From NCBI RefSeq assembly GCF_024298765.1, contig NZ_CP101210.1: DNA of 64,000 bases; one strand, 5' to 3'. A program made the translations under genes and the position numbers. This DNA is from Escherichia coli. Its GTDB lineage: Bacteria > Pseudomonadota > Gammaproteobacteria > Enterobacterales > Enterobacteriaceae. The notes beneath the pieces are model-generated. The model saw only the letters and a program-made list of their open reading frames with translations. It was not told the DNA's origin and made no database searches. Position 1 is the first letter of the stretch; every line of letters starts with the position of its first letter. Shown piece after piece: positions 41,734 to 42,210 of the stretch.

Positions 41734-41937
41734 TTAGTTAGAGTTAATTAGCTTATCAACCTCTGTAAGAGATAAAGTTGCCATCTCTGCAACGTCTTCC
41801 CGAGACATTCCTTTACTCAGAAGACGCTGGGCCAGCCTTACCTTCCGGAGTCCCTCTTTATATCCCTTCTGAAATCCCTTCTCTTCAAACCACTGCGCCA
41901 ACGTCTGCCTGGTTTCTCTCCGTGTCTTTATTTCCAT
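41734..41937 (-). CDS. Free-standing small ORF resembling the C-terminal tail of the Rpn nuclease (RpnS-like)
   Basis: 67-codon ORF MEIKTRRETRQTLAQWFEEKGFQKGYKEGLRKVRLAQRLLSKGMSREDVAEMATLSLTEVDKLINSN, with an AAGGGA Shine-Dalgarno about 5 nt upstream. It parallels the C-terminus of the adjacent rpnC (…TLAQWFEERG…FLSKGMSREDVAEMANLPLAEVDKLIS). Confidence 0.5.
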   Translation of the reverse strand: MEIKTRRETRQTLAQWFEEKGFQKGYKEGLRKVRLAQRLLSKGMSREDVAEMATLSLTEVDKLINSN

Positions 41938-42210
41938 ATGTTCCCTTAATTATCTGGTCAGTTAACAATAACAATTATCTGGCTATAACTGATAATGCAG
42001 ATAACTTAGCTAATCAGCTTATCAACCTCAGCAAGAGGTAAATTTGCCATCTCTGCAACGTCTTCCCGAGACATCCCTTTACTCAGAAAACGCAGGGCGA
42101 ATTCCTGTCTTACTTCCTGTCTAACCTCTTGTATTACCTCCTGTCTTACCTCCTGCCTTTCCTCCTGTCTTCCCCTCTCTTCAAACCACTGCGCCAGCGT
42201 CATCATAGAC
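41734..42210. repeat. Tandem imperfect direct duplication of the rpnC 3' end
   Basis: The 41740-41940 block and the 42010-42210 block share long near-identical stretches (for example ttgccatctctgcaacgtcttcccgagacat and ctcttcaaaccactgcgcca). Confidence 0.7.

What the first reader, a model, noticed from the sequence alone, without database searches (positions are those of the whole stretch)
41734..42210. Tandem duplication of the rpnC 3' end creates a free-standing RpnS-like small ORF
The last ~200 bp of rpnC (42006-42210) is repeated imperfectly just downstream (41740-41940). The downstream copy is a 67-codon ORF with its own Shine-Dalgarno (AAGGGA, 5 nt spacing) that encodes a peptide paralleling the RpnC C-terminal tail. 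Rpn proteins have been reported as toxic, phage-defence-associated PD-(D/E)XK nucleases held in check by a small protein made from an internal start in the same gene. A second, unlinked copy of that tail could be an orphan antitoxin-like or dosage-modulating gene. From memory, the K-12 gap between yadD and panC is much shorter (tens of bp), so this may be strain-specific.
Basis: partly seen in the sequence, partly recalled or inferred. Interest (0 to 1): 0.65.

Follow-up and report, generated by a model that had tools for sequence, protein, structure and literature searches.

The report
Known second RpnC tail gene (rpnC_Ss)
The small gene just downstream of rpnC is a real, conserved duplicate of that nuclease's tail, but it was already described in 2023 as rpnC_Ss and about a quarter of E. 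coli genomes carry it, so it is correct but ordinary.

Summary
A 67-codon ORF (41734-41937, minus strand) lies 68 nt downstream of rpnC/yadD (42006-42926). It is an imperfect copy of the rpnC 3' end (BLASTP 58% identity, E=2e-18; DNA blocks at 90% and 74%). K-12 lacks it, with a 73-bp rpnC-panC gap. It is not new: Zhong et al. (PNAS 2023) named this gene rpnC_Ss, alongside ypaA/rpnE_Ss in K-12. I find it in 1539 of 5426 complete E. coli genomes (28%) and in E. marmotae. It is intact in all 35 sampled loci, with an invariant translation-start region and pN/pS near 0.39, so it behaves like a real gene and not a relic. One point goes beyond the paper. The helix-1 repeat region of the free-standing copy almost never matches the adjacent RpnC tail in length (1 of 24 distinct pairs). 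One Ss allele sits beside RpnC tails of 34, 38, 42 and 50 aa. The paper showed that a single extra repeat stops RpnC_S blocking RpnC_L. A simple "extra dose of cognate antitoxin" role is therefore doubtful. An alternative-specificity tail is more likely, and one allele shows the nuclease body fused to it. No function was tested.

The parts
41734..41937 (-). rpnC_Ss: free-standing 67-aa copy of the RpnC C-terminal (RpnS / HTH_Rpn_C) domain
   Evidence: ORF listed. BLASTP to the RpnC tail gives E=2e-18. It matches the C-terminal end of NCBIfam TIGR01784 at E=1e-8. It is intact in 35/35 sampled loci with C-module pN/pS 0.39. It is identical to WP_039005036.1 in E. coli strain 104.
41942..41947 (-). 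Shine-Dalgarno-like AAGGGA, 4 nt upstream of the rpnC_Ss ATG
   Evidence: Read from the sequence. The ~35 nt upstream of the ATG (TAACTGACCAGATAATTAAGGGAAC[A/C]TATG) are invariant in 35 loci, including E. marmotae.
41938..42005 (-). 68-nt spacer between the rpnC stop and the rpnC_Ss start. The first ~14 nt are homologous to the flank 3' of rpnC_Ss. The rest is unique to this locus and contains CCAGATAATT twice.
   Evidence: No promoter-like or terminator-like site lies on the minus strand. K-12-type genomes match nothing in this part of the query.
42006..42926 (-). rpnC/yadD, full-length RpnC_L (306 aa), a YhgA-like PD-(D/E)XK nuclease
   Evidence: Pfam PF04754 E=2.9e-85 over residues 7-207. 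NCBIfam TIGR01784 scores 271 bits. RefSeq annotation.
42006..42206 (-). Intragenic RpnC_S frame (66 aa), starting at the internal ATGATG (42201-42206) preceded by GGGAGGG (42213-42219)
   Evidence: Read from the sequence. The internal start site of rpnC is documented by ribosome profiling and SPA tagging in K-12 (Zhong 2023). It was not tested in this strain.
42103..42171 (-). Array of 12-nt (4-aa) repeats in helix 1 of the RpnC tail, 5.8 copies
   Evidence: TRF period 12, score 96. The repeat finder family D1. Repeat number varies between strains, giving repeat regions of 14 to 54 aa.
41838..41905 (-). Diverged, shorter repeat region of rpnC_Ss (KGFQKGYKEGLRKVRLAQRL, 20 aa, against 30 aa in RpnC)
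   Evidence: Other alleles have 18 to 30 aa.
41646..41670 (+). Terminator-like hairpin after panC, in the convergent gap between panC and rpnC_Ss
   Evidence: 9-bp stem, 6 GC pairs, T-rich tail. Function not tested.

Best explanation
Identity. This is rpnC_Ss, the already-described free-standing second copy of the RpnC C-terminal domain. That domain is the RpnS-type small protein, which Pfam now calls HTH_Rpn_C.

Origin. It arose by duplication of the rpnC 3' end. The copy kept the ancestral 3' flank next to panC, lost the internal ATGATG start, and gained a new SD and ATG 10 codons upstream.

Status. It is a real gene under purifying selection. It is most likely transcribed by read-through from rpnC, since no promoter or terminator is seen in the 68-nt spacer. 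It would then be translated from its own conserved start into a small helical protein that dimerises through its long first helix (inferred).

Role. Its repeat region is not matched to the neighbouring RpnC tail and does not co-vary with it. I therefore infer that it does not act as an extra dose of the cognate antitoxin. More likely it is a tail module of different specificity. It could pair with itself or with other Rpn tail variants, or it could be recombined onto the nuclease body to switch the tail, as in the fused allele L016. The identity, origin and conservation are shown here. The expression and the role are inferred.
For: Homology and position.

Prior description: Zhong 2023 describes rpnCSs downstream of rpnC in some strains and derives it phylogenetically from RpnC. 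The paper also notes loss of the gene by deletion or by fusion.

Prevalence: 1539/5426 complete genomes. It also occurs in E. marmotae and other Escherichia spp. at the same panD-rpnC-Ss-panC position.

A real gene:
- The ORF is intact in 35/35 loci.
- C-module pN/pS is 0.39, against 0.30 for the in-gene tail and 0.18 for the nuclease body.
- The start region is invariant.

Mismatch:
- 24 distinct (RpnC, Ss) repeat pairs were found and only one has equal length. Differences run from -8 to +32 aa.
- One Ss allele occurs with RpnC tails of 34, 38, 42 and 50 aa.
- In K-12, YpaA differs from RpnE_S by one 4-aa unit.

Specificity rule: adding one KGIE repeat abolishes the RpnC_S block of RpnC_L.

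Tail switching:
- In L016 the RpnC body is fused to an Ss-type tail ending ...MATLSLTEVDKLINSN, with no separate Ss gene.
- The L002 Ss C-module is 95-96% identical to L-type tails and 89% to the window's Ss. This suggests gene conversion between the two copies.
Against: - No expression or functional data exist for rpnC_Ss in any strain. Zhong 2023 worked in K-12, which lacks it. Only the analogous YpaA/RpnE_Ss was shown to be made.
- The repeat-matching rule rests on one +1-repeat experiment with K-12 RpnC and may not generalise.
- My 24 pairs are neither a random nor an independent sample.
- The selection estimates come from 25 codons and are confounded by gene conversion.
- The structural model has moderate confidence (pLDDT 72.8) and no significant PDB match.
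Confidence: 0.8

Rival explanations
1. rpnC_Ss is a decoupled extra copy of the cognate antitoxin. It binds and inhibits the neighbouring RpnC_L and raises or separately regulates the antitoxin dose.
For: - It is homologous to RpnC_S and has the same C-terminal helices.
- It lies adjacent to rpnC on the same strand with no terminator between them.
- Purifying selection acts on it.
Against: - The repeat-region length differs from the neighbour in 23 of 24 distinct pairs and does not co-vary with it.
- In this window the regions are 20 and 30 aa, with different repeat sequences.
- One extra repeat is enough to abolish RpnC_S action on RpnC_L.
Confidence: 0.25
2. It is a decaying by-product of a duplication or tail replacement with no function. 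K-12 ypaA is annotated as a pseudogene, and PGAP flags some copies of this ORF as partial.
For: - RefSeq marks ypaA as a pseudogene.
- PGAP flags the ORF as incomplete in L007, L011 and L014.
- The gene is absent from 72% of E. coli genomes.
- It has no significant Pfam-A hit in the available library.
Against: - The flagged copies are in fact intact ATG-to-stop ORFs.
- The ORF is intact in 35/35 loci across E. coli and E. marmotae.
- pN/pS is 0.39 at pS 0.235.
- The SD/ATG region is invariant and more conserved than synonymous sites of rpnC.
- The analogous YpaA protein is detectably made.
Confidence: 0.1
3. It is mainly a DNA-level spare cassette. Recombination between the two tail copies, by deletion or gene conversion, rapidly changes the RpnC tail and so its antitoxin and phage specificity. 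The encoded protein is secondary.
For: - The fused allele L016 carries an Ss-type tail on the RpnC body.
- C-modules are mosaic and shared between the Ss and L copies.
- Zhong 2023 notes loss by fusion and speculates that RpnL may initiate such recombination.
Against: - A silent cassette would not need a conserved SD/ATG and leader, or purifying selection on its own reading frame.
- Only one fusion allele was seen in my sample.
Confidence: 0.3

Closest known systems
rpnC_Ss (Zhong et al., PNAS 2023, PMC10400941, Fig. 2I)
   Same: [quoted passage not shown] The paper derives it from RpnC and notes that its 4-aa repeats vary.
   Different: Nothing differs in kind. This window carries one allele (67 aa, 20-aa repeat region) that is 100% identical to E. 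coli strain 104. The paper gives no expression or function data for rpnC_Ss, and the held main text does not compare its repeat number with the neighbouring RpnC.
ypaA / rpnE_Ss of E. coli K-12
   Same: It is a free-standing duplicate of an Rpn tail directly downstream of its parent gene. It is one 4-aa unit out of register with the intragenic RpnE_S. The protein was detected by SPA tagging.
   Different: The origin is independent, from rpnE. The duplication is clean, with a 12-nt spacer, and copies the internal SD and start exactly. rpnC_Ss has a 68-nt spacer, has lost the internal start and uses a new upstream ATG. RpnE is annotated as an inactive nuclease.
Intragenic RpnC_S antitoxin
   Same: It shares the domain: the TLAQWFEE motif, a repeat helix and two C-terminal helices.
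   Different: RpnC_S is read from the same DNA as RpnC_L, so its repeat number always matches. rpnC_Ss is a separate gene with an extra 10-residue leader (MEIKTRRETRQ), and its repeat region varies independently.
Stand-alone DUF4351 (PF14261) small proteins
   Same: Zhong 2023 says separately encoded RpnS proteins are annotated as DUF4351 in some species.
   Different: This ORF gives no DUF4351 hit. Close homologues carry weak precomputed hits to PF27070 HTH_Rpn_C instead.

Membership tests
RpnSs (free-standing Rpn small protein, Zhong 2023) | Homology to the C-terminal domain of the adjacent Rpn protein | tested here: met
   BLASTP gives 58% identity, E=2e-18. DNA blocks are 90% and 74% identical.
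RpnSs (free-standing Rpn small protein, Zhong 2023) | Separate ORF immediately downstream of the parent rpn gene, on the same strand, with its own start | tested here: met
   The ORF 41734-41937 (-) lies 68 nt after the rpnC stop, with AAGGGA 4 nt before the ATG. The position is the same in 35 loci.
RpnSs (free-standing Rpn small protein, Zhong 2023) | Hypervariable 4-aa repeats near the start of helix 1 | tested here: met
   Ss alleles have repeat regions of 18, 20, 22, 24, 26 and 30 aa, for example KGFQ once or twice.
RpnSs (free-standing Rpn small protein, Zhong 2023) | The protein is actually synthesised | not testable with these tools
   Only indirect evidence is available: an invariant SD/ATG region and pN/pS 0.39. 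The analogous YpaA was detected in K-12.
RpnS antitoxin of the cognate RpnL | Same number of 4-aa repeats as the RpnL it inhibits (Zhong 2023, Fig. 4D) | tested here: not met
   The window has 20 aa against 30 aa. Only 1 of 24 distinct neighbour pairs has equal length, and the two do not co-vary.
RpnS antitoxin of the cognate RpnL | Blocks RpnL toxicity, SOS induction and nuclease activity, and binds RpnL | not testable with these tools
   This needs co-expression or biochemistry.
RpnS fold (RpnA_S crystal structure: three-helix bundle with a long first helix, dimer) | One long helix followed by two short helices | tested here: inconclusive
   The AF2 model has pLDDT 72.8 with helices at 13-19, 22-41, 46-52 and 57-65. 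That agrees with the description. Foldseek against the PDB gave no significant match (best E=0.79, generic HTH motifs), and RpnA_S was not among the top hits. The PDB sequence search also missed it.
Pfam PF27070 HTH_Rpn_C | Significant match to the family HMM | tested here: inconclusive
   Precomputed hits on close homologues are marked weak. The Pfam library available to profile_search does not contain this model.
Pfam PF14261 DUF4351 | Significant match to the family HMM | tested here: not met
   It is not among the hits at E<=10.
Rpn / YhgA-like PD-(D/E)XK nuclease ('transposase' in RefSeq) | The Transposase_31 nuclease domain (PF04754) | tested here: not met
   The small ORF matches only positions 213-273 of TIGR01784, below the cut-off, and has no PF04754 hit. 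The 'transposase' label on it is a misnomer. The neighbouring rpnC does meet this feature.

The most novel reading that the evidence does not exclude
The free-standing Rpn tail genes (rpnC_Ss, and ypaA in K-12) are systematically kept out of repeat register with the neighbouring nuclease, so they are not redundant antitoxins. They would act instead as a second specificity module. Candidate roles are a decoy or sensor for a phage factor, an inhibitor of incoming Rpn variants, or an expressed spare tail that recombination can swap onto the nuclease body to change its specificity.
Probability: 0.35. Interest if true: 0.45.

Novelty: already known. Interest (0 to 1): 0.22.

Why it matters
The feature itself adds nothing new. 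It is the published rpnC_Ss gene at its usual place between rpnC and panC.

The useful residue is a testable refinement of the Rpn toxin-antitoxin model. If repeat matching governs pairing, the second tail copy cannot be a simple back-up antitoxin for its neighbour. That raises the question of what a conserved, mismatched copy does in about 28% of E. coli genomes.

The survey also exposes inconsistent annotation. The same ORF is called 'transposase', 'hypothetical protein', 'RpnC/YadD family protein' or a pseudogene in different RefSeq records.

Tried and rejected
- PDB sequence search with the 67-aa protein found only a designed HTH repeat protein, not RpnA_S.
- Foldseek of the AF2 model against the PDB gave no significant match.
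- PADLOC gave no hit for either protein.
- Pfam-A gave no significant hit for the small ORF or for a 71-aa homologue. The available library lacks PF27070.
- The promoter and terminator scan found no minus-strand promoter in the spacer and no terminator between rpnC and the small ORF. The one minus-strand 'terminator' lies inside the ORF and is probably spurious.
- A literature search for follow-up work on RpnC_Ss, YpaA or DUF4351 after 2023 found nothing relevant in the held library. The supplement of Zhong 2023 is not held.
- I first read pN/pS 0.72 from 6 alleles as relaxed constraint. The larger sample gives 0.39, so I dropped that reading.
- The 'intermediate' O157-type allele, with a 298-bp gap, is not a degraded Ss. 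It holds an unrelated insertion.
- I considered a clean tandem duplication and rejected it. About 50 nt of the spacer match neither copy, and the internal start site was not retained.

Full report
**What is there**

The window carries panB (39981-40775, +) and panC (40787-41638, +). These are followed by a 67-codon ORF (41734-41937, -), rpnC/yadD (42006-42926, -, 306 aa), panD (43200-43580, +) and yadE.

The small ORF aligns to RpnC residues 243-306 with 37/64 identities, E=2e-18. At DNA level, the repeat finder reports two blocks. Block 41742-41832 matches 42008-42098 at 90% over 91 nt. Block 41838-41905 matches 42134-42201 at 74% over 68 nt. The offsets, 266 and 296, differ by 30 nt, so there is an indel inside the array of 12-nt repeats (42103-42171, period 12, 5.8 copies). 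The similarity continues about 14 nt past both stop codons.

Three details need adjusting:
- The AAGGGA (41942-41947) is 4 nt, not 5, from the ATG.
- About 50 nt of the 68-nt spacer resemble neither copy.
- The copy has lost rpnC's internal ATGATG start (42201-42206, preceded by GGGAGGG at 42213-42219). It begins 10 codons further upstream, which adds the leader MEIKTRRETRQ.

**Is it strain-specific?**

K-12-type genomes have a 73-bp rpnC-panC gap and no such ORF. MG1655, BL21, REL606, O157, O103 and O111 match only through the rpnC tail itself. The inserted segment, with at least 80% of 41690-42005 covered, is present in 1539 of 5426 complete E. coli genomes, or 28%. The window is 100% identical to E. 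coli strain 104, from chicken in China, where the ORF is WP_039005036.1, 'transposase'.

A protein search finds free-standing variants of 55-77 aa in E. coli, E. marmotae and other Escherichia. All contexts I fetched place the gene at the same panD-rpnC-Ss-panC position.

**Is it known?**

Yes. Zhong et al. (PNAS 2023, PMC10400941) established four points:
- rpn genes encode a toxic full-length nuclease (RpnL).
- A small protein (RpnS) is made from an internal start in the same gene.
- RpnS acts as the antitoxin.
- The system contributes to phage defence.

[quoted passage not shown] It shows that this copy clusters with RpnC_S, not with ypaA/rpnE_Ss. It also notes that such genes can be lost by deletion or by fusion to the N-terminal domain. 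The accompanying commentary reads the second copy as a decoupled antitoxin. PGAP now labels the ORF 'RpnC/YadD family protein' in some genomes. I found no later work on it in the held library.

**Is it a real gene?**

The ORF is intact from ATG to stop in all 35 carrier loci I sampled. That includes three where PGAP flags it as partial.

| Region | pN/pS | Notes |
|---|---|---|
| Ss C-terminal module (25 codons) | 0.39 | 8 alleles, pS 0.235 |
| In-gene RpnC tail, same module | 0.30 | |
| Nuclease body | 0.18 | pS 0.24 |

A smaller sample had given 0.72 for the Ss module.

The ~35 nt before the ATG are identical in every locus, including E. marmotae. That makes them more conserved than synonymous sites of rpnC. 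No promoter-like or terminator-like site lies on the minus strand of the spacer, so read-through transcription from rpnC is the simplest inference.

The AF2 model (pLDDT 72.8) shows a long helix (22-41) followed by two short helices. This agrees with the published description of RpnA_S as a three-helix bundle. It has no significant PDB match, and the best similarities are generic HTH motifs.

Family searches gave the following:
- Pfam-A has no significant hit.
- NCBIfam TIGR01784 matches only its C-terminal end.
- Close homologues carry weak precomputed hits to PF27070 HTH_Rpn_C.
- The neighbour gene rpnC is a full PF04754 protein.

**What goes beyond the paper**

Zhong et al. showed that adding a single KGIE repeat to RpnC_S abolishes its ability to counteract RpnC_L. 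Matching the repeat number on both partners restores it.

In this window the repeat region, taken between AQWFEE and LSKG, differs between the two copies. It is 30 aa in RpnC (RGRQEERQEVRQEVIQEVRQEVRQEFALRF) and 20 aa in the small ORF (KGFQKGYKEGLRKVRLAQRL).

Across 35 carrier loci there are 24 distinct (RpnC, Ss) pairs. Only one pair has equal lengths (30/30), and its repeat sequences differ. The length differences range from -8 to +32 aa. One Ss allele is found next to RpnC tails of 34, 38, 42 and 50 aa, and another next to tails of 38 and 54 aa. In K-12, YpaA likewise carries one extra 4-aa unit (KLEG) relative to RpnE_S.

The second copy is thus generally out of register with its neighbour and does not co-vary with it. 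By the published specificity rule, this argues against a simple 'more of the same antitoxin' role. The argument is an inference, for two reasons. The rule rests on one experiment. My pairs are not an independent random sample.

**Recombination between the copies**

L016 (strain FDAARGOS_1281) has no separate Ss gene. Its RpnC ends in the Ss-type tail ...MATLSLTEVDKLINSN, followed by the Ss-type 3' flank. This is the fusion route mentioned in the paper.

The C-module of the L002 Ss allele is 95-96% identical to L-type tails and only 89% identical to the window's Ss allele. That suggests gene conversion between the two positions.

**Verdict**

The finding is accurate but already published, so it is ordinary as a discovery. 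The best-supported reading is a conserved, separately translated RpnS-type paralogue of different repeat register. Such a copy more plausibly provides an alternative tail specificity, or a swappable tail, than extra cognate antitoxin. Expression and function remain untested.

Noticed in passing
L003 1580-1877 (E. coli HB6; O157-type genomes): These genomes have a 298-bp rpnC-panC gap that holds an unrelated insertion, not a degraded rpnC_Ss. From memory of the consensus (…AAGCTCCTGGGGATT… and …ACTCGTCATACTTCAA…) it looks like an ERIC/IRU intergenic repeat. I did not test this with a tool.
   Followed up: partly
L007, L011, L014 vs L002, L009: RefSeq/PGAP annotates the same intact small ORF in four ways: 'transposase', 'hypothetical protein', 'RpnC/YadD family protein', or a partial pseudogene. 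L011 and L002 encode identical proteins, yet one is flagged as a pseudogene.
   Followed up: yes
L031 659-1532 and L034 636-1532: In two short-read (Logan) assemblies rpnC is split into two ORFs (136+153 aa and 124+161 aa) while the downstream rpnC_Ss is intact. This is either real toxin loss with the small gene retained, or an assembly error.
   Followed up: no
L017 6905-8002 (K-12 rpnE-ypaA): ypaA is a clean duplication that copies the internal SD and start of rpnE exactly (AAAAGGAGAGATTAATGACTATTGCTGAACGG), with a 12-nt spacer. YpaA has one extra 4-aa unit (KLEG) compared with RpnE_S. RefSeq still calls ypaA a pseudogene, although Zhong 2023 detected the protein.
   Followed up: partly
window 41734-41830 (C-terminal half of the small ORF) and 42006-42095: The last two helices (LSKGMSREDVAEMATLSLTEVDKLI) look like a helix-turn-helix. 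There are weak Pfam hits to HTH_3, HTH_26 and HTH_7, and a PDB hit to a designed HTH repeat protein. The best Foldseek neighbours are resolvase and TrpR HTH motifs, and Pfam's own name for the family is HTH_Rpn_C. Whether RpnS proteins bind DNA is not addressed here.
   Followed up: partly
window 41938-42005: The spacer contains CCAGATAATT twice, 31 nt apart. Its promoter-proximal 35 nt are invariant across E. coli and E. marmotae. That is more conserved than expected for neutral intergenic DNA, yet no sigma-70-like promoter was detected on the coding strand.
   Followed up: partly
window 8929-8974 (-): Rfam reports an HtrA 5' UTR thermometer (RF02700, 77 bits) upstream of the degP/htrA-sized ORF 7510-8934. 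It is a known element and the only Rfam hit in the window.
   Followed up: no
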